Assembly (NCBI GenBank): GCA_963664705.1
Contig: OY761556.1
Coordinates: 1 to 64,000, forward strand
From: Acidobacteriota bacterium
GTDB lineage: Bacteria; Acidobacteriota; UBA6911
Direction of reading: 5' to 3'
Length of the DNA stretch: 64,000 nucleotides
Both the position numbers and the translations under genes were made by a program. Below, one piece after another: positions 31,854 to 37,856 of this stretch (position 1 is its first letter; each line of letters opens with the position of its first letter). Below the pieces are notes generated by a model. It ran no database searches. It was not told the origin of the DNA and was given only the letters and a program-made list of their open reading frames with translations.

Positions 31854-33368
31854 ATGGCAAATTTGTACTTCATGGGGATTGATGTTGGTACTGGCGGTAC
31901 GCGTGCTGTGATCATTGACGAGAATGGACGCATTGTATCCTCCGCAACGGAAGAGCATGTGCCATTTGCATCTCCTGAGATTGGGTGGGCGGAACAGGAT
32001 CCGGAAGACTGGTGGCGCGCCTGCGGTGTCGCGGTACGGAAAGCCCTTAGAGCTGCACTGTTGGATGCATCGCAAATCGCCTGTGCAGGATTCTCGGGGC
32101 AGATGCATGGAGCCGTTATGCTCGATGAGCGCGATGCCGTTGTACGCCCGGCTCTCATCTGGTGCGATGTGCGGACCGAACAGCAATGCCGGAAACTGAC
32201 GATGGAAATCGGGGCGGAACGATTGATCCAGCTCACCTGCAATCCGGCTCTGCCCAATTTTACCTTAACCAAGTTTTTGTGGGTCCGTGAAAACGAACCC
32301 GGGAACTGGCAGCGCGTCCGTTCTGTTATGCTTCCGAAAGACTATGTCCGCTTCAGGCTGACTGGTGAGCGGGCCATTGACGTGGCGGATGCTTCCGGCA
32401 CGCTGCTTCTGGACGTGGCAAAACGATGCTGGTCTGAGGAGATCATCCGCAAAGCTGAAATTGACGCTTCGATGCTCCCGCAGTTATACGAATCGCAGGA
32501 AATATGCGGGAGAGTGACCGCCAATGGAGCCGAAGCCACCGGGCTGAAGCCGGGCACTCCCGTTGTCGCGGGAGCCGGAGATCAGGCCGCCGGCGCAACC
32601 GGAATGGGAATCGTTGCCCCGGGCAATGTGAGCGCTACGATCGGGACGTCGGGTGTAGTCTTTGCCGCGACTGACCGACCGGCCCTGGATTCAAAGGGAA
32701 GGCTGCACACCTTCTGCCACGCCGTGCCGGGACGATGGCACGTCATGGGCGTGACTCAGGCCGCCGGGCTGTCATTACGTTGGTTCAGAGATCAGTTCGG
32801 TTCCGGTTTGGACGATGGCCGGGATCCCTATGAGAGGCTTGCCGAGGAGGCATCCCGAGTGCCCGCGGGATCGGACGGATTGCTCTGGGCTCCGTACCTG
32901 ATGGGAGAACGCACTCCGCATCTGGACCCGAATGCCCGAGGCGCCCTGGTCGGCTTGACCGCCTCCCATACACGAGGACATGTGATCCGGTCGATTCTTG
33001 AAGGCGTGGCTTTTAGTCTGAAGGATACTTTTACCCTGTTTGCCGGGATGGGCGTTCCTGTCAACAGGATACGGCTCGGCGGGGGAGGGGCGCGATCCCC
33101 TTTGTGGCGGCAGATTCAGGCAGACGTCTATGGAAAAGCCGTAGAGATTGTCGAGGCGGAGGAAGGTGCCGCCTATGGAGCCGCAATTCTTGCGGGCGTT
33201 GGGGCGGGATGCTGGCCTTCAGTGGACCAGGCATGCGAGCGGCTTATCCGTGTGGCCAGTGTCGTTGAGCCCCGGTCCGACAACATGGATCGAATGGCCC
33301 GGCAGTATGAGGCCTATCAAAAGATGTATGGCGCTATTCGTTCAGTGATGCCGTCGTCCGCATACTAA
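31854..33368 (+). CDS. xylB: Xylulokinase (FGGY family)
   Basis: GIDVGT, EQDPEDWW, FSGQMHG, GAGDQAAG, PYLMGERTPH. Confidence 0.93.
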   Translation: MANLYFMGIDVGTGGTRAVIIDENGRIVSSATEEHVPFASPEIGWAEQDPEDWWRACGVAVRKALRAALLDASQIACAGFSGQMHGAVMLDERDAVVRPALIWCDVRTEQQCRKLTMEIGAERLIQLTCNPALPNFTLTKFLWVRENEPGNWQRVRSVMLPKDYVRFRLTGERAIDVADASGTLLLDVAKRCWSEEIIRKAEIDASMLPQLYESQEICGRVTANGAEATGLKPGTPVVAGAGDQAAGATGMGIVAPGNVSATIGTSGVVFAATDRPALDSKGRLHTFCHAVPGRWHVMGVTQAAGLSLRWFRDQFGSGLDDGRDPYERLAEEASRVPAGSDGLLWAPYLMGERTPHLDPNARGALVGLTASHTRGHVIRSILEGVAFSLKDTFTLFAGMGVPVNRIRLGGGGARSPLWRQIQADVYGKAVEIVEAEEGAAYGAAILAGVGAGCWPSVDQACERLIRVASVVEPRSDNMDRMARQYEAYQKMYGAIRSVMPSSAY

Positions 33369-33401: not shown

Positions 33402-33522
33402 CGGGAGCGCCGCTGTCTCGCCTAATGACGCTTACTTTTTTTCGGGCGGTTTTCTTTCGCCCCCTTCAGGGCTCCTATTTTTTTAATATTCTACCAGGGG
33501 TTCGCTCCGCTCACCCCTGGCT
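33402..33522. repeat. REP-like repeat, left part of the IS target site
   Basis: Closely similar to parts of 24110-24300; ends ...cacccctgg-CT. Confidence 0.8.
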
Positions 33523-33608
33523 GATATGGAGTGATCGGTCAAGTACAATCAATCCGTTCCTTGTTCGTTCATTTTGGTTTTCTTCGGTTCATAAATAAAT
33601 CAGCCAGT

Positions 33609-33796
33609 AAAAAGAACAGGGGATCGAGTTGGCAACAGCGACGATAATCAATCTGATATTCGCGGGTCGATAAGCACGCATGACAACTGATTCATCGGGA
33701 GCGGCCTCACTCTACTTCCGTGGATTCTGGTTTCCCATACCAACATAGCCAGGTCGAGGTTTCTCCTTTCGAAGCCTGGAACTCGATCTCCTGTTC
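33609..33796 (-). ncRNA. Putative bridge RNA / seekRNA of the IS110 element
   Basis: 17-bp basal stem (33614-33630 with 33780-33796) enclosing two stem-closed loops that match the target (CCTGGCTA) and the donor junction (ATATCAGA). Confidence 0.8.
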
Positions 33797-33868
33797 CGTT
33801 CACTAACCGAATGTTTCCGTTATTAATCCATTGAAGAACAAAATAGCTGCAAGAGCTGGTGCCTTATG

Positions 33869-34963
33869 TCATGCAACGCGACCGATAGCCCAGATAAATC
33901 CTGCCAATTCTCGACTTACCGCAACCGCGATCTTTTGTCTTTCTTTCCCTCGGTTGAGCATGCGTCGGAATTTTTGATTCAATCGCTTATCGCAACGTTG
34001 TGCAATCTCGATAACTTCTGCCGGCAAACACTCTCGTCGTTTCTTGAGAGTTTTGCCAGCTACTGAAGAATGACGGTAGTGCCAGGCGCTTTCGATCAGC
34101 ACCCTACGTAGGTGGCTGTTTCCCGTTTTGGTTATCCTTCCCCGTCTTTCAAGTTCACCTGAGCTGCTTTCCGAAGGCACCACCCCAATAGCGGCCATAA
34201 ACGAAGGCGCATCGACGAACCGTCTTAAATCGAGCGCTTCTGCGATAATCGTCATCGCCGTCAGAACCTGAACACCTTTTAGCGCCATCAAATAGCTGAC
34301 TCGCTTTTGATAGTTCGGCTGTTTTGCAACTTCCTCGATTTTTCCCTGGAATGTTTTCAACCGCTCCGTCTGTTGCTCAAGCGCCTGTCGATATTCCTCC
34401 AGTACTGTTTGATCCCCATCATCCTCAAACACAAGGCTCTTAATCCACTTTAGGTGCCCAAGCGACCAGTTCTTGCCCTGCGGATATTTCAATCCACGTC
34501 GCATCAGAAACCGTGCTAATCGATGCCGTGCTCGCTGCTGGTCTTCCAATGCGTCTTCTCGCGCACGCACCAGATCTCGCAGACTTTCCTGTTCTTTTTG
34601 CGGGATCACAATACATGTTAGTTCTCCCGCTCGGTACAATTTGCCCAAGGCTTTCGCATCCAGCTTATCCGTTTTTACTTTTTTCCCCGCTCGTCTCGGA
34701 GTCAACGAAGGGGCCGCAACATCACAAGAAATCCCATGTTTGGCCAAATAGCGCTGCAAATAGTATCCATTAACGCCCGCTTCGTAGACGCACCGTACAT
34801 CATCTTCAAATGCCCTTAGCTTTTTCGCTAACCGACCCAGCCCCGTACTGTCGTTTGATACAACAAGTTCTTCTCGAGGGTTACTTTCCTGCCCGCGAAA
34901 AATTGCGACGTTTATCTTTTTTGCTGAATCATCCATCCCTACCCAAGTGATACAATCTGCCAT
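33869..34963 (-). CDS. IS110-family DEDD recombinase/transposase
   Basis: VGMDDS, VYEAG, KTDKLDA; C-terminal GVVPSESSSG...GRITKTGN; GAGGAG RBS. Confidence 0.96.
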   Translation of the reverse strand: MADCITWVGMDDSAKKINVAIFRGQESNPREELVVSNDSTGLGRLAKKLRAFEDDVRCVYEAGVNGYYLQRYLAKHGISCDVAAPSLTPRRAGKKVKTDKLDAKALGKLYRAGELTCIVIPQKEQESLRDLVRAREDALEDQQRARHRLARFLMRRGLKYPQGKNWSLGHLKWIKSLVFEDDGDQTVLEEYRQALEQQTERLKTFQGKIEEVAKQPNYQKRVSYLMALKGVQVLTAMTIIAEALDLRRFVDAPSFMAAIGVVPSESSSGELERRGRITKTGNSHLRRVLIESAWHYRHSSVAGKTLKKRRECLPAEVIEIAQRCDKRLNQKFRRMLNRGKERQKIAVAVSRELAGFIWAIGRVA

Positions 34964-35064
34964 GATCGGTCTCCTCATGTTTTATGGCTCTGCAGCTTCG
35001 TCACCACGACTTCAGCTGTAACCCACGATATTACATGCTAGAGACCGATCACTCCATTATGTCT

Positions 35065-35215
35065 ACTCTCTTCCGCGCCTCCGGCGCTGGATCTTTGTTC
35101 CATCTATACTAAGCGCCGGGGTTTAAGCGGAAGAGAGTAAATGGAACAAAAATCCAGCCCCGGGAGGGGCGGTCAGAAAATAGCCGGGGGTGAAGCGCAG
35201 CGAACCCCCGGATTG
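35065..35215. repeat. Right part of the interrupted REP cluster plus an inverted REP copy
   Basis: tactctcttccgc...gcggaagagagta inverted repeat; tagccgggggtgaagcgcagcgaacccccgg at 35181-35211. Confidence 0.75.
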
Positions 35216-35242: not shown

Positions 35243-35935
35243 TTAACCTATTTCGGCGAATTTATACCCAAGTCCATGCACCGTGATAATCCACTTCGGC
35301 TGCTTGGGATCCTCTTCCAGTTTTTGCCTGAGCCATGCGATGTGAACATCGACGGTGCGAGTGTACGGTACTGAACTATACCCCCATACTTCCTGAAGCA
35401 ATATCTCCCGGCTGATCGTCTCTCCTTCATGGTCGATCAGATAGCGCAGGAGTTGGAACTCCTTGGCGGAAAATTCGACAGGCTTCCCATCCCGCAGGAT
35501 TTCCGTTTTCTTGAAATCGATTGTCACGGGGCCAAACTGGTGGATACGCGGCGCGGAGGCAAAGGTACGCGTGGCTCTCCTCAAAAGTGCCTCAATTCGG
35601 GCCAGGAGTTCAGGCATCTCGAAAGGCTTGGTCAGATAATCGTCTGCGCCGATTTTGAGTCCCTGGACCTTATCCATTGTCTGGGACCGAGCTGTAAGCA
35701 TCAGAATCGGGGTTGCCATTCCCGAGTTGCGAAGGTCCTGGCATATTTCGTATCCGTTTTTATTCGGCAACATGAGATCGAGGAGAATCAAATCGTAGGC
35801 TTGGTTAAGAGCCTGTTCGTATCCGGACTGTCCATCCGAGGATACCTCGACGATGTAGCCTTCCTTGCGCAGTCTGTCTCCAAGCGTCAAACACAAGCCG
35901 GGCTCGTCTTCAATGAGAAGGATTCTGAACTGCAT
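35243..35935 (-). CDS. OmpR/PhoB-family response regulator
   Basis: ILLIEDE, LLDLMLP, GADDYLTKPF, RTVDVHI, GLGYKF. Confidence 0.95.
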   Translation of the reverse strand: MQFRILLIEDEPGLCLTLGDRLRKEGYIVEVSSDGQSGYEQALNQAYDLILLDLMLPNKNGYEICQDLRNSGMATPILMLTARSQTMDKVQGLKIGADDYLTKPFEMPELLARIEALLRRATRTFASAPRIHQFGPVTIDFKKTEILRDGKPVEFSAKEFQLLRYLIDHEGETISREILLQEVWGYSSVPYTRTVDVHIAWLRQKLEEDPKQPKWIITVHGLGYKFAEIG

Positions 35936-37856
35936 GATTTTGATTTCCTTTGTCGGCAGTCGACCTGCCTGGTAGGTGGATTATAAAAACGCTTCCTTTT
36001 CCTCGTGTGCTCTTGACCGATAGGGTGCCTCCCATGGAAACCACGGCTTCACGCACCATGAACAACCCTAGTCCGGTCCCGTGTATCTGGGCGGCGGAAG
36101 CGGCGCTGCCGCGGTAGAATGGTTCGAAAATATGGTCCAGATCTTCGTGATCGATTCCCATTCCTTTATCCTCGACGGAAAGACGAACCTCGGTGCCATG
36201 TTTTGCCCGTGCTTTTTCCGTTCGAATCATCATCCAGCGACTTTCGCCCGAGTACTTCAAAGCGTTTTGTATGAGGTTTTGAATCACATGTGACAGAGCG
36301 GTTGGGTCCACCTGGACGGCAGGCAATTCCAGGTCAAACCTGGTGTCGACAGTGAATCCCGCGGCCTCAATGGCCGGTTTTGCCTGATTAAGAGTTTTTC
36401 TTACGATGCTATTCAGATCTGTATCGCTGAGATTATATTGCCGACGCCCGGAGCGCACGCTGGCGAACTGCAGAATCTGCTCGATCATTGCCGTAAGCTT
36501 CCTGGCTTCGCCGCGAATGAGCTCTCCGTATTTTCGAGCGGAACCGCCCGAATCGTTGACGATTCCATCCGCAAGGTTGTCTCCGGCGGCGCAGATCACC
36601 GTCAGGGGGGTTCGGAGTTCATGGGATACTCCGGCGACGAAATCAATCTGCAGTTTTGCCAACCGTTGTGCGCGCCTTGCGAATACGAGTACCAAAGCCA
36701 TACTGACGGCCAGCAGCAGGAGAATTCCAAAGCTGATGGCAAGGTTGCGGTATCTGGATCTGGCAACAGCTGCGACCAGAGATCCTTCGCGGTGAATCGC
36801 CAGTACTTCCGCGATAGAACCGTCCTGTTCCAAAACCTGGAGAATTCCTGGCCGTTCCGCTTGCGGCGTTGGTTCCGGCCGGAAGCCGAATCCTGGCGGC
36901 GGAGGTTCCTCTCGCCCCGGTCTTTGCCTCTCCGGTCTGCCGGGATCCCTAGGATCAGGGCCCCCGGGCCCCATAGGATTGCCCGGCCTATTGGGATCAT
37001 TGGGCCCAATGGGTCCGGTACGTTCCCGGCCGGCTTCCAGTAGTCTGATACGCGCATCCGGTTTTGAAAAAGATTCCAGCGTCAGTCCAGGATCTGAAGT
37101 ATACAGAAACTCAGACGGAGTCTTCCCGTTTACCACCGCGATGTGGTAAACAAACCCATGAGAGCCTCCAAAGCACCTTCTGGCAAGTTCCGGGAAGATC
37201 TCCTGGCTTAAGACCTTTGGATTCAGCTGCAGCATGACAAACCCGATGAATCGGCGGTCCGGCCTTGTGCCGGATGGCTGAAACTTCACAAGCGGATGGA
37301 GCATCAGCATACTGTCGAGGTTTACAAATCGGTCAAATGGGCGCAGCCCGCGAATCGGAGGAAATGGTTCCAGAAAAAACCGCATCTGTCGGGTGCGGAC
37401 CGATTCAAACTCGGAAGGCCAGCTTTCAACCTCGAACCTTTTGGTCGCGCGGTTCAGATGATAAAGCTCCGATGCTCCGTTTTCTTTTGCAATCCACAGC
37501 CAGACACCGTGAAGCAAGTGAATGTCGGAGTTGCTCAGAATGTTATCGCAACTCACGGCGTAGCTTTGCCAGTCTTCCTGATTCAGGATTGCCATATCCG
37601 GCTGGAAGAGAAAATCAAGCCTCTGGAATTCACCCTGAAACTGCGCCCGGAACTGATTGAGTGCTGTCAGCAGGCTTGCATGCATGCGCTCCTGCTCCGC
37701 TTCTCCGAGTTGGCCACTCCAGCGGTACTGCAGGATTGCAAGCGAGATCAGGATTGTACAGAGCAGGCCTACCAGGATGATGGAGGAGGCTGTGCTCTTG
37801 AAGAAGCCGCTTCTCGAGCTTCTTGGTATTAAACGATTCCATTGGGAGGTTTGCAC
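35910..37856 (-). CDS. Sensor histidine kinase (2 TM, Pro/Gly-rich periplasmic loop)
   Basis: VSHELRTPL, NLIQNALKY, DKGMGI, GTGLGL; overlaps the regulator start. Confidence 0.93.
   Translation of the reverse strand: MQTSQWNRLIPRSSRSGFFKSTASSIILVGLLCTILISLAILQYRWSGQLGEAEQERMHASLLTALNQFRAQFQGEFQRLDFLFQPDMAILNQEDWQSYAVSCDNILSNSDIHLLHGVWLWIAKENGASELYHLNRATKRFEVESWPSEFESVRTRQMRFFLEPFPPIRGLRPFDRFVNLDSMLMLHPLVKFQPSGTRPDRRFIGFVMLQLNPKVLSQEIFPELARRCFGGSHGFVYHIAVVNGKTPSEFLYTSDPGLTLESFSKPDARIRLLEAGRERTGPIGPNDPNRPGNPMGPGGPDPRDPGRPERQRPGREEPPPPGFGFRPEPTPQAERPGILQVLEQDGSIAEVLAIHREGSLVAAVARSRYRNLAISFGILLLLAVSMALVLVFARRAQRLAKLQIDFVAGVSHELRTPLTVICAAGDNLADGIVNDSGGSARKYGELIRGEARKLTAMIEQILQFASVRSGRRQYNLSDTDLNSIVRKTLNQAKPAIEAAGFTVDTRFDLELPAVQVDPTALSHVIQNLIQNALKYSGESRWMMIRTEKARAKHGTEVRLSVEDKGMGIDHEDLDHIFEPFYRGSAASAAQIHGTGLGLFMVREAVVSMGGTLSVKSTRGKGSVFIIHLPGRSTADKGNQNHAVQNPSH

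What the first reader, a model, noticed from the sequence alone, without database searches (positions are those of the whole stretch)
33609..33796. Readable bridge/seek RNA programmed for the host REP repeat
Seen: the reconstructed empty target is cacCCCTGG-CT-ACTctcttccg and the circle junction is ccattaTGT-CT-GATATgg. The minus-strand RNA has a 17-bp basal stem followed by a U-run. A CCUC/GAGG-closed loop contains CCUGGCUA (33746-33753; identical to 8 nt of target across the core) and AGUAG (33712-33716; complement of CT-ACT). A CGAU.AAUCA/UGAUUAUCG-closed loop contains UGUC (33682-33685) and AUAUCAGA (33652-33659; complement of 8 nt of donor junction). Established: IS110/IS1111 recombinases use such bispecific RNAs. 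Inference: this is a complete and probably active orthologue usable as a programmable recombinase.
Basis: partly seen in the sequence, partly recalled or inferred. Interest (0 to 1): 0.75.

Follow-up and report, generated by a model that had tools for sequence, protein, structure and literature searches.

The report
Bridge RNA aimed at REP repeats
Behind the intact recombinase gene of an 11-copy jumping gene lies a stretch whose letters match the element's landing site and its own ends and change with them in relatives, so it very likely encodes the guide ("bridge") RNA of an already known class of RNA-programmed recombinases; that the RNA is made and works here is predicted, not shown.

Summary
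All four guide matches sit at the stated coordinates, and 0 of 20,000 shuffles hold them in order. The RNA lies in the 3' end of an IS110-family element (33521-35064) with 11 copies in the genome; 10 are in a GTAG-type REP and 1 is at a non-REP site that still fits the guide. Across 63 related elements the target-loop letters track the insertion site, and the donor-loop letters track the element's right end. The helices show compensatory change. Corrections: the U-run is part of a longer stem, not a conserved terminator; the last letter of each 8-nt match lies outside the classical guide; the transposase groups with ISSso6/ISEc45, not ISEc66. Expression, circles and activity were not observed, so 'usable tool' is untested. 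Verdict: new member of a known kind (bridge/seekRNA, 2024). The scan already reported another copy of this element (e1-10542208). Small extra: a 'mixed' handshake, unlike IS621, that may ease excision.

The parts
33521..35064 (-). IS110-family insertion sequence with IS1111-type ends, counted with both CT cores (1542 bp plus one core); 11 full copies in the genome
33869..34963 (-). DEDD recombinase/transposase, 364 aa from the ATG behind a ribosome-binding-like AGGAG (the ORF tool starts 15 nt earlier, at 34978). D11, E61, D99, D102 and S268-G269 are present
   Evidence: PF01548 E 5e-16 and PF02371 E 1e-18; aligns to IS621 and ISCro4 chains at E about 2e-6; residue positions; start codon choice inferred
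33606..33804 (-). Predicted bridge/seek RNA: a long basal stem enclosing a target-binding hairpin and a donor-binding hairpin side by side; true ends unknown
   Evidence: model R1 finds 11 places in the genome, all inside element copies (150 of 1165 first-look candidates scored)
33780..33804 (-). 5' strand of the basal stem; pairs with 33606-33630, including the U-run
   Evidence: 10 of 19 pairs with two-sided change in 22 orthologues
33698..33766 (-). Target-binding hairpin: GGAG/CUCC and CCUC/GAGG helices, internal loop, inner stem
33747..33753 (-). Left-target guide CCUGG plus core CU (target positions 3-9); the next base, A33746, is outside the classical guide
   Evidence: positions 4-7 match the site in 52, 51, 55, 53 of 58 elements, position 3 in 37 of 58; all 11 own sites match CC.GG
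33712..33717 (-). Right-target guide AAGUAG (core plus target positions 10-13)
   Evidence: positions 10, 11, 12, 13 match in 58, 55, 33, 23 of 58
33710..33711 (-). Predicted target-loop handshake bases AG; the A can pair with donor position 7 (T)
   Evidence: role by analogy to IS621
33639..33697 (-). Donor-binding hairpin: CGAUG/CGUCG and AUCA/UGAU helices, internal loop, inner GCG/CGC stem
33682..33685 (-). Left-donor guide UGUC
   Evidence: donor position 5 matches in 48 of 63 (within-clade expectation 43, p 0.003); other positions weak; 6 of 6 informative independent pairs
33653..33659 (-). Right-donor guide AUAUCAG (core, 3-nt end extension, first 2 nt of the inverted repeat)
   Evidence: donor positions 10 and 11 match in 63 and 62 of 63; 6 of the 9 elements with a non-GAT end have an exactly matching guide
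33651..33652 (-). Predicted donor-loop handshake bases AU; they pair with donor positions 7 and 6 (A-T, U.G), not with target position 7 (G)
   Evidence: role inferred
33526..33540 (.). Right subterminal inverted repeat, 15 bp, 3 nt inside the core
35043..35057 (.). Left subterminal inverted repeat, 15 bp perfect, 7 nt from the end counting the core
33537..33542 (-). -35-like hexamer TTGACC of the predicted circle-junction promoter
   Evidence: TTGACC-17 nt-CATAAT forms only on end joining; consensus match only
35056..35061 (-). -10-like hexamer CATAAT of the predicted circle-junction promoter
33494..33520 (+). REP hairpin, left half of the target; the element splits its CTAC (GTAG) foot
35065..35070 (+). 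Right half of the target, downstream of the core

Best explanation
This is very likely the gene for the bispecific guide (bridge/seek) RNA of an IS110-family element: its target-loop letters match the REP site into which the element inserts, its donor-loop letters match the joined element ends, and it is predicted to steer the element's recombinase as the IS621 bridge RNA does. Shown in sequence: the element, its 11 sites, the four matches, their covariation in relatives, and the two-hairpin fold. Inferred cycle: (1) the element leaves as a circle, whose junction forms a sigma-70-like promoter; (2) one transcript covers the recombinase gene and the RNA behind it, and the RNA is trimmed out; (3) one recombinase dimer uses the target loop to open CCTGG-CT-ACT, which in this genome is nearly always the foot of a GTAG-type REP; (4) another dimer uses the donor loop to open the circle junction; (5) the RuvC-DEDD/Ser sites exchange strands at the shared CT core. 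About 10 letters of guide are enough to explain the REP preference: 25 of the 29 empty perfect sites lie in REPs.
For: Four guides in order: 0 of 20,000 shuffles. All 11 sites fit CC[T/C]GG-CT-A, including one non-REP site inside a coding gene. The REP variant matching the guide is preferred: 9 of 10 occupied REPs against 35 of 111 empty ones, Fisher p 4.5e-4. Alignment-free test on 56 elements: mean match 4.46 nt to the element's own site against 2.11 in 3004 non-cognate pairs. Column test on 58-63 elements with within-clade permutation: target positions 3-7 and 10-12 p <= 4e-4; donor positions 10-11 p <= 6e-4; donor position 5 p 0.003. Independent tree pairs: left target 22 wins, 1 loss, 5 ties; right target 20, 0, 8; left donor 6, 0, 25; right donor 4, 0, 27. 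Structure: 92% of cells paired, 18 of 49 pairs with two-sided change, 0 of 500 shuffles, slid controls 39-48%. The same scaffold lies behind ISSso6 and ISEc45. Catalytic residues and junction promoter are present. The mechanism was shown for IS621 and for ISEc11, ISPa11 and ISKpn4.
Against: No transcript, circle or recombination product was observed. Donor-side evidence is thinner: most elements share the same ends, the independent-pair test for the right donor guide is not significant (p 0.125), and left-donor positions 3, 6 and 7 show no within-clade signal. 3 of the 9 elements with a non-GAT right end have one guide mismatch. A few elements show no left-target match (L062, L137, L141). The helices closing both loops are nearly invariant and so uninformative. 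The model was built from 22 of the same sequences. No member of this clade was found tested in the papers searched.
Confidence: 0.88

Rival explanations
1. SeekRNA-type operation: the working species is a short processed RNA holding only the target hairpin; the ends are recognised mainly by protein through the 15-bp subterminal repeats, and the donor hairpin is accessory or used only at one step, such as excision.
For: For ISEc11 an 82-nt target-only RNA was the more abundant species and was sufficient for movement (PMC11187229). A truncated target-loop RNA takes part in a second pathway in CazIS110-1 (bioRxiv 10.1101/2025.10.25.684509, abstract). This element has long subterminal repeats, and donor covariation is weaker than target covariation.
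Against: The donor hairpin is conserved in every element examined, and L113 keeps it while lacking a normal target loop. Its right guide follows changes of the 3-nt end extension (63 of 63 and 62 of 63). The basal stem that encloses both hairpins covaries.
Confidence: 0.25
2. The guide RNA is real, but the element is at present silent in this genome; the copies are relics of a recent burst.
For: No back-joint (circle junction) in contigs of the runs that held the element (X1-X5). One of 11 copies has a nonsense codon and one further site holds only a 93-bp end fragment.
Against: 10 of 11 copies have open frames, and copies are 98.9-100% identical with the RNA unchanged in all 11. Contigs drop rare variants, and IS621 excision is rare (0.03% in vitro), so not seeing a circle means little.
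Confidence: 0.2
3. The recombinase recognises the REP hairpin by shape or through protein contacts, and the matches in the RNA are coincidence or leftovers.
For: 10 of 11 insertions are in hairpins. Short matches such as UGUC and AGUAG are common by chance.
Against: One insertion is in non-hairpin coding DNA that matches the guide. Only 13 of 55 relatives pass a simple hairpin test at their site, yet guides track sites across the set. The commoner REP variant that mismatches the guide is avoided.
Confidence: 0.03

Closest known systems
ISSso6 / ISEc45 / ISCARN28 / ISPye17 clade of the IS110 family; the ISCARN28 bridge RNA was predicted in Durrant et al. 2024 (PMC11208160; passages and supplement searches, figure not seen)
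   Same: The transposase is 38% identical to ISSso6 and 36% to ISEc45 over about 360 aa and sits in one branch with them. The same RNA scaffold lies downstream of both (49 and 39 bits). ISCARN28's protein in the PMC11187229 source file carries the same YEAG motif (seen by eye; not aligned).
   Different: Different guide letters and target. No experimental test of this clade was found.
IS621 and ISCro4/IS622 bridge RNA-recombinases (PMC11208160, PMC11208158, PMC13626964; passages and one section)
   Same: Two loops, each with a left guide, a right guide and handshake bases; CT core; DEDD plus Ser-Gly; junction promoter; the target is a REP, cut within CTAC.
   Different: The RNA lies downstream of the gene, with both hairpins inside one basal stem; IS621's lies upstream and has a separate 5' stem. 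Relative to the guides the gene points the other way. Subterminal repeats are long. The left-target guide covaries over 5 positions, where IS621 pairs 7. The donor-loop handshake base pairs with the donor here and with the target in IS621. The proteins are barely alignable (E about 2e-6).
IS1111-family seekRNA elements ISEc11, ISPa11 (REP-targeting), ISKpn4, ISPst6 (PMC11187229, parts 1-5 of 9 read)
   Same: Subterminal repeats with 7- and 3-nt extensions, non-coding region downstream of tnp, top-strand match 5' of bottom-strand match, junction promoter, natural reprogramming among relatives.
   Different: The transposase aligns with ISEc66 over only 143 aa (31%) and falls in another branch. 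Model R1 does not hit the ISEc66 locus. That paper identified no donor guide.
GTAG-type REP / RAYT system (PMC3733652, PMC2817692; search listing only)
   Same: The target is a short palindrome with a GTAG foot, about 124 empty copies. The one Y1_Tnp gene found is flanked by inverted copies.
   Different: The REP is the host substrate, not part of the element. The copies flanking the Y1_Tnp gene are the CCCGG variant that the element mostly avoids.

Membership tests
IS110 family | RuvC-like DEDD domain (PF01548) plus Tnp domain (PF02371) | tested here: met
   both above the curated cut-off
IS110 family | Catalytic D-E-D-D and Ser-Gly residues | tested here: met
   D11, E61, D99, D102, S268-G269; aligned to IS621
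IS110 family | Site-specific insertion at a shared core, one orientation | tested here: met
   11 of 11 copies have CT on both sides in the same orientation to the site
IS110 family | Circular intermediate with junction promoter | tested here: inconclusive
   Promoter consensus forms on joining; no circle joint in contigs
IS1111 family (Partridge/Hall; Siddiquee 2024) | Subterminal inverted repeats, usually 11-13 bp (7-17 in Durrant 2024) | tested here: met
   15 bp perfect
IS1111 family (Partridge/Hall; Siddiquee 2024) | Terminal extensions of 7 bp left and 3 bp right | tested here: met
IS1111 family (Partridge/Hall; Siddiquee 2024) | Long non-coding region downstream of tnp | tested here: met
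   about 350 nt downstream against about 90 nt upstream
IS1111 family (Partridge/Hall; Siddiquee 2024) | Top-strand match 5' of bottom-strand match in the RNA | tested here: met
   In tnp orientation CCUGGCU is the complement of the top strand and precedes AGUAG
IS1111 family (Partridge/Hall; Siddiquee 2024) | Transposase related over its full length to IS1111-type proteins | tested here: not met
   Against ISEc66, the only such protein compared: 31% over 143 aa, different branch in a quick tree. ISEc66's IS1111 status is inferred from its MEAC motif and its place beside ISEc11 in the paper's matrix. Filed as IS1111-like in layout, not as IS1111 in the strict sense.
Bridge RNA (Durrant 2024) | Target-binding loop with guides to both strands that covary with the target | tested here: met
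Bridge RNA (Durrant 2024) | Donor-binding loop with guides to both strands that covary with the donor | tested here: met
   Right guide p <= 6e-4 and left position 5 p 0.003 within clades; few independent events (4 and 6 pairs), so weaker than for the target
Bridge RNA (Durrant 2024) | Conserved secondary structure | tested here: met
Bridge RNA (Durrant 2024) | Handshake bases that pair with the partner DNA after strand exchange | tested here: inconclusive
   The target-loop base pairs with donor position 7 in 62 of 63, but both are nearly invariant. The donor-loop base pairs with the target alone in 12 of 62, with both in 4, with the donor alone in 44 (this element among them), with neither in 2.
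Bridge RNA (Durrant 2024) | Expressed and bound by the recombinase | not testable with these tools
   needs RNA data or co-purification
Bridge RNA (Durrant 2024) | Loops reprogrammable by mutation | not testable with these tools
   only natural reprogramming seen
GTAG-type REP (target) | Multicopy short palindrome with GTAG foot and a flanked Y1 tyrosine transposase | tested here: met
   124 empty copies; PF01797 gene at G000 1439920-1440261 with inverted REPs on both sides

The most novel reading that the evidence does not exclude
This clade runs a full two-loop bridge RNA with a 'mixed handshake'. The first handshake base of both loops pairs with the donor's position 7 (44 of 62 elements, this one included), whereas in IS621 the donor-loop base pairs with the target. 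By the rules published for IS621, the target loop would then favour insertion and the donor loop excision. That would give a naturally more reversible recombinase, and show that elements with long subterminal repeats still read their own ends through RNA.
Probability: 0.3. Interest if true: 0.5.

Novelty: new member of a known kind. Interest (0 to 1): 0.3.

Why it matters
Bridge/seek RNAs have been known since 2024 and were predicted in 86-93% of ISfinder IS110/IS1111 elements (PMC11208160), so one more is expected. The value here is practical. It is an intact, recently expanded element from a clade with no experimental test found, far from IS621 in protein sequence, with its guides, core, ends and promoter mapped by covariation and ready to clone. 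Two open points become testable with it: whether elements with long subterminal repeats need the donor loop (the bridge RNA and seekRNA papers differ on this), and whether a donor-pairing handshake base in the donor loop shifts the balance towards excision. Its natural specificity is short (about 10 letters), which may limit its use as a tool.

Tried and rejected
Rfam: no meaningful match; three chance hits far below their cut-offs. Sequencing runs: no RNA holder listed, which is no evidence either way. Contigs of X1-X6 and reads of X17 laid on the element: no circle joint; X17 laid nothing, so it is no test; X1-X4 are one sample and may be the genome's source. A joint skipping the element in X2 (25 letters on the short side, single-copy depth) was rejected as proof of excision, because 3 empty REP copies elsewhere in the genome match the empty site over 25 letters each side with 2 mismatches. 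U-run as terminator: rejected. Stand-alone copies of the RNA, like ssr9 of ISPpu9: none among the 150 of 1165 candidates scored. Longer guides: target positions 1, 2, 14 and 15 show no within-clade covariation; the match at position 15 in 10 of 11 own sites falls on an invariant scaffold G. The base after the left guide tracks target position 10 (49 of 62 against 37 expected), but this cannot be told from pairing inside the RNA with the right guide. Differently aimed guides among the 11 copies: none; the RNA is identical. Structure prediction and complex prediction were not run. ISCARN28 was not aligned, because its sequence was seen only in a paper supplement. An NCBIfam scan was not completed.

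Full report
Observation. The four motifs are at the stated coordinates on the minus strand. They lie in the roughly 350-nt non-coding end behind an open frame at 33869-34963 (minus strand) that carries PF01548 and PF02371. The element runs from 33521 to 35064 counting both CT cores, with perfect 15-bp subterminal repeats 3 and 7 nt from the ends. The 188-nt stretch folds better than all 200 shuffles (z -3.71). In 20,000 dinucleotide shuffles of the 333-nt end, none held all four guides in order, 5 held the target pair and 22 the donor pair; UGUC alone appeared in 12,921, so only the set is informative.

The element in its genome. There are 11 full copies at 98.9-100% identity and one 93-bp end fragment. 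Ten have open frames, one has a nonsense codon, and the RNA region 33609-33796 is identical in all 11. The ORF has 22 variable sites; at that rate about 3.7 would be expected in the RNA (hand count; mild evidence). In run X1 the element's contig has depth 62 against about 6 for the flanking contig, which fits a collapsed multicopy element, but this run may be the genome's source. Ten copies split the CTAC foot of a REP hairpin. The eleventh lies in a coding gene at ACCTGG-CT-ATC, with no hairpin, and still fits the left guide, by one letter more than the REP does. The REP has 124 empty copies by my pattern, and the one Y1_Tnp gene found is flanked by inverted copies, as for a RAYT (the GTAG/RAYT names come from search listings, and recall). 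Of 111 empty REPs ending in CTAC, 76 read CCCGG and 35 CCTGG, yet 9 of 10 occupied REPs are CCTGG, the variant the guide spells (Fisher p 4.5e-4). Of 29 empty perfect sites CCTGG-CT-ACT in the genome, 25 are in REPs, so guide sequence alone nearly explains the REP preference.

Relatives. Scans of genome and metagenome contigs and of 61 related genomes gave 190 loci. Of these, 131 had a near-full-length transposase and an inverted repeat, and 105 had both ends found by a pattern that forced the left core to AG or AC; 100 of the 105 had AG at the right core. They collapse to 64 elements at 90% identity of the 3' end. Without any alignment, the longest match of an element's own left target plus core in its 3' end averaged 4.46 nt (56 elements with flanks), against 2.11 for 3004 non-cognate pairs. 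An alignment of 22 close RNAs gives a basal stem enclosing two hairpins: 92.2% of cells paired, 18 of 49 pairs with two-sided change, 0 of 500 shuffles, slid controls 39-48%. The helices that close the loops are nearly invariant and so say little. A model built from these 22 matched all 64 loci, matched ISSso6 and ISEc45, and gave no credible match in 14 loci of distant IS110 proteins including ISEc66.

Guide covariation. I used the model alignment, left out L113 (no normal target loop), kept all misses, and permuted both freely and within clades of at least 55% protein identity. Left-target positions 3-7 matched in 37, 52, 51, 55 and 53 of 58 (within-clade means 26-31, p 2e-4); positions 1-2 were not significant. 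Right-target positions 10-13 matched in 58, 55, 33 and 23 of 58 (p 2e-4, 2e-4, 4e-4, 0.03). Right-donor positions 10 and 11 matched in 63 and 62 of 63 (p <= 6e-4). Left-donor position 5 matched in 48 of 63 (p 0.003) and position 4 in 34 (p 0.03); positions 3, 6 and 7 gave no within-clade signal. L098 is circular (its flank is a copy of its own RNA); it was and was dropped. On disjoint sister pairs of a FastTree tree, own pairing beat swapped pairing 22:1 (5 ties) for the left target, 20:0 (8) for the right target, 6:0 (25) for the left donor and 4:0 (27, p 0.125) for the right donor. Of 9 elements whose right end is not GAT, 6 have an exactly matching guide and 3 one mismatch. Target reading is thus well supported; donor reading is supported by fewer events.

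The basal stem is 16 pairs and one mismatch, and it extends outwards so that the U-run pairs with 33798-33804. A run of four T is present in 5 of 22 orthologues and the terminator scan does not flag it. The eighth letter of CCUGGCUA is A in 46 of 63 elements; it tracks target position 10 (49 of 62 against 37), but may do so by pairing with the right guide inside the RNA. The eighth letter of AUAUCAGA is the position called the handshake guide in IS621.

How it most likely works. Shown: anatomy, sites, covariation, catalytic residues D11/E61/D99/D102/S268, and a TTGACC-17-CATAAT promoter consensus that exists only when the ends are joined. Inferred from IS621 and ISEc11: excision to a circle, co-transcription of gene and RNA, a dimer on each loop, strand exchange at CT. 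Not observed: transcript, circle, recombination. No circle joint appeared in the contigs laid, and the one joint that skips the element is explained by empty REP paralogues.

Handshake. In IS621 both handshake guides pair with the partner DNA after exchange during insertion, and configurations that favour insertion disfavour excision. Here the first handshake base of the target loop pairs with donor position 7, as in IS621, but that of the donor loop also pairs with the donor. This holds for 44 of 62 elements; 12 have a donor-loop base pairing with the target alone, 4 with both, 2 with neither. All 13 elements whose base is not A can pair it with target position 7 (12 Watson-Crick, 1 G.U; 6:0 in independent pairs), so the position is under selection in some lineages. 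Whether the common A state promotes excision or is just a scaffold default is open. A search for IS1111, bridge RNA and handshake together returned 4 papers; the passages I read from them do not describe this.

Comparison. It works like a bridge RNA and is a member of the IS110 family. It has every layout feature of IS1111-type elements, but its protein is 36-38% identical over its length to ISSso6 and ISEc45 and aligns with ISEc66 over only 143 aa; a quick tree agrees, though ISEc66 is a long branch there. ISCARN28, one of six RNAs modelled by Durrant et al., is listed among these names and carries the same YEAG motif (by eye, figure not seen). REP targeting is known for IS621, ISPa11 and ISPpu9. 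Papers seen: PMC11208160 (passages, supplement searches, part of file 7); PMC11187229 (parts 1-5 of 9, supplement searches); PMC11208158 (passages); PMC13626964 (passages, section 6); PMC13604230 (passages); bioRxiv 10.1101/2025.05.14.653916 and 10.64898/2026.01.12.699009 (passages; supplements closed, and they may list tested orthologues); bioRxiv 10.1101/2025.10.25.684509 (abstract). No experimental test of this clade was found in searches. The scan's own notes hold a report on another copy of this element and several like it in other genomes; they are not independent evidence.

Verdict. Real, well supported and of a known kind: interest 0.3.

Noticed in passing
G000:C1:2938671-2940214 (L197): The one non-REP copy interrupts a short ORF just upstream of an HTH gene (PF01381, E 8e-10); the ORF's second half has weak YoeB/ParE hits (E 0.03-0.04, below cut-off). 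It is probably the toxin of a HigBA-like toxin-antitoxin pair, knocked out by the insertion.
   Followed up: partly
window 33745-33754: The DNA that encodes the left guide is itself a target-like site, identical over 10 letters (ACCTGG-CT-AT) to the non-REP insertion site. Self-insertion is therefore predicted; none is seen among the 11 copies.
   Followed up: partly
L098:1838-1876: This relative's right flank is the reverse complement of 39 nt of its own bridge RNA, ending at the guide core: either an insertion into a sister copy's RNA gene or an assembly artefact at a contig end.
   Followed up: partly
run X5 on window 34847-35065: A run from another study holds the element joined to the same non-REP flank, but with the letters 34877T and 34903C that in G000 belong to three other copies. 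This suggests gene conversion between copies or a second insertion at the same site. Its contigs also diverge at 33622, 34301 and 34701, perhaps other insertions.
   Followed up: no
G000:C1:4126127-4126219: A 93-bp left-end fragment of the element at a REP; the rest of the element and part of the hairpin are deleted.
   Followed up: partly
G000:C1:1439777-1440395 (L191): Y1_Tnp (RAYT-like) gene flanked by inverted REPs of the CCCGG variant, the variant the element mostly avoids.
   Followed up: partly
L162, L081, L082, L084, L085, L163, L087, L094: The closest relatives (60-80% protein identity) sit at GC-rich, REP-like sites ending CC.GG or C.GGG, and their left guides follow the local variant (CTGGG, CGGGG, CCAGG, CCTGG): natural retuning to each host's repeat.
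   Followed up: partly
window 34721 and 33878: The window's copy differs from all 10 other copies at two sites; 34721 gives Asp for Glu at a non-catalytic position, 33878 is silent. Private mutations or assembly errors (codon reading by hand).
   Followed up: no
L113: A relative with a short 3' end (190 nt) that keeps the donor hairpin but lacks a normal target hairpin, and whose two cores differ (AG and AA).
   Followed up: no
window 31854-33368 and 35243-37856: The REP cluster that holds the element lies between a sugar-kinase-like gene and a response regulator/histidine kinase pair (names by eye from the translations, not tested).
   Followed up: no
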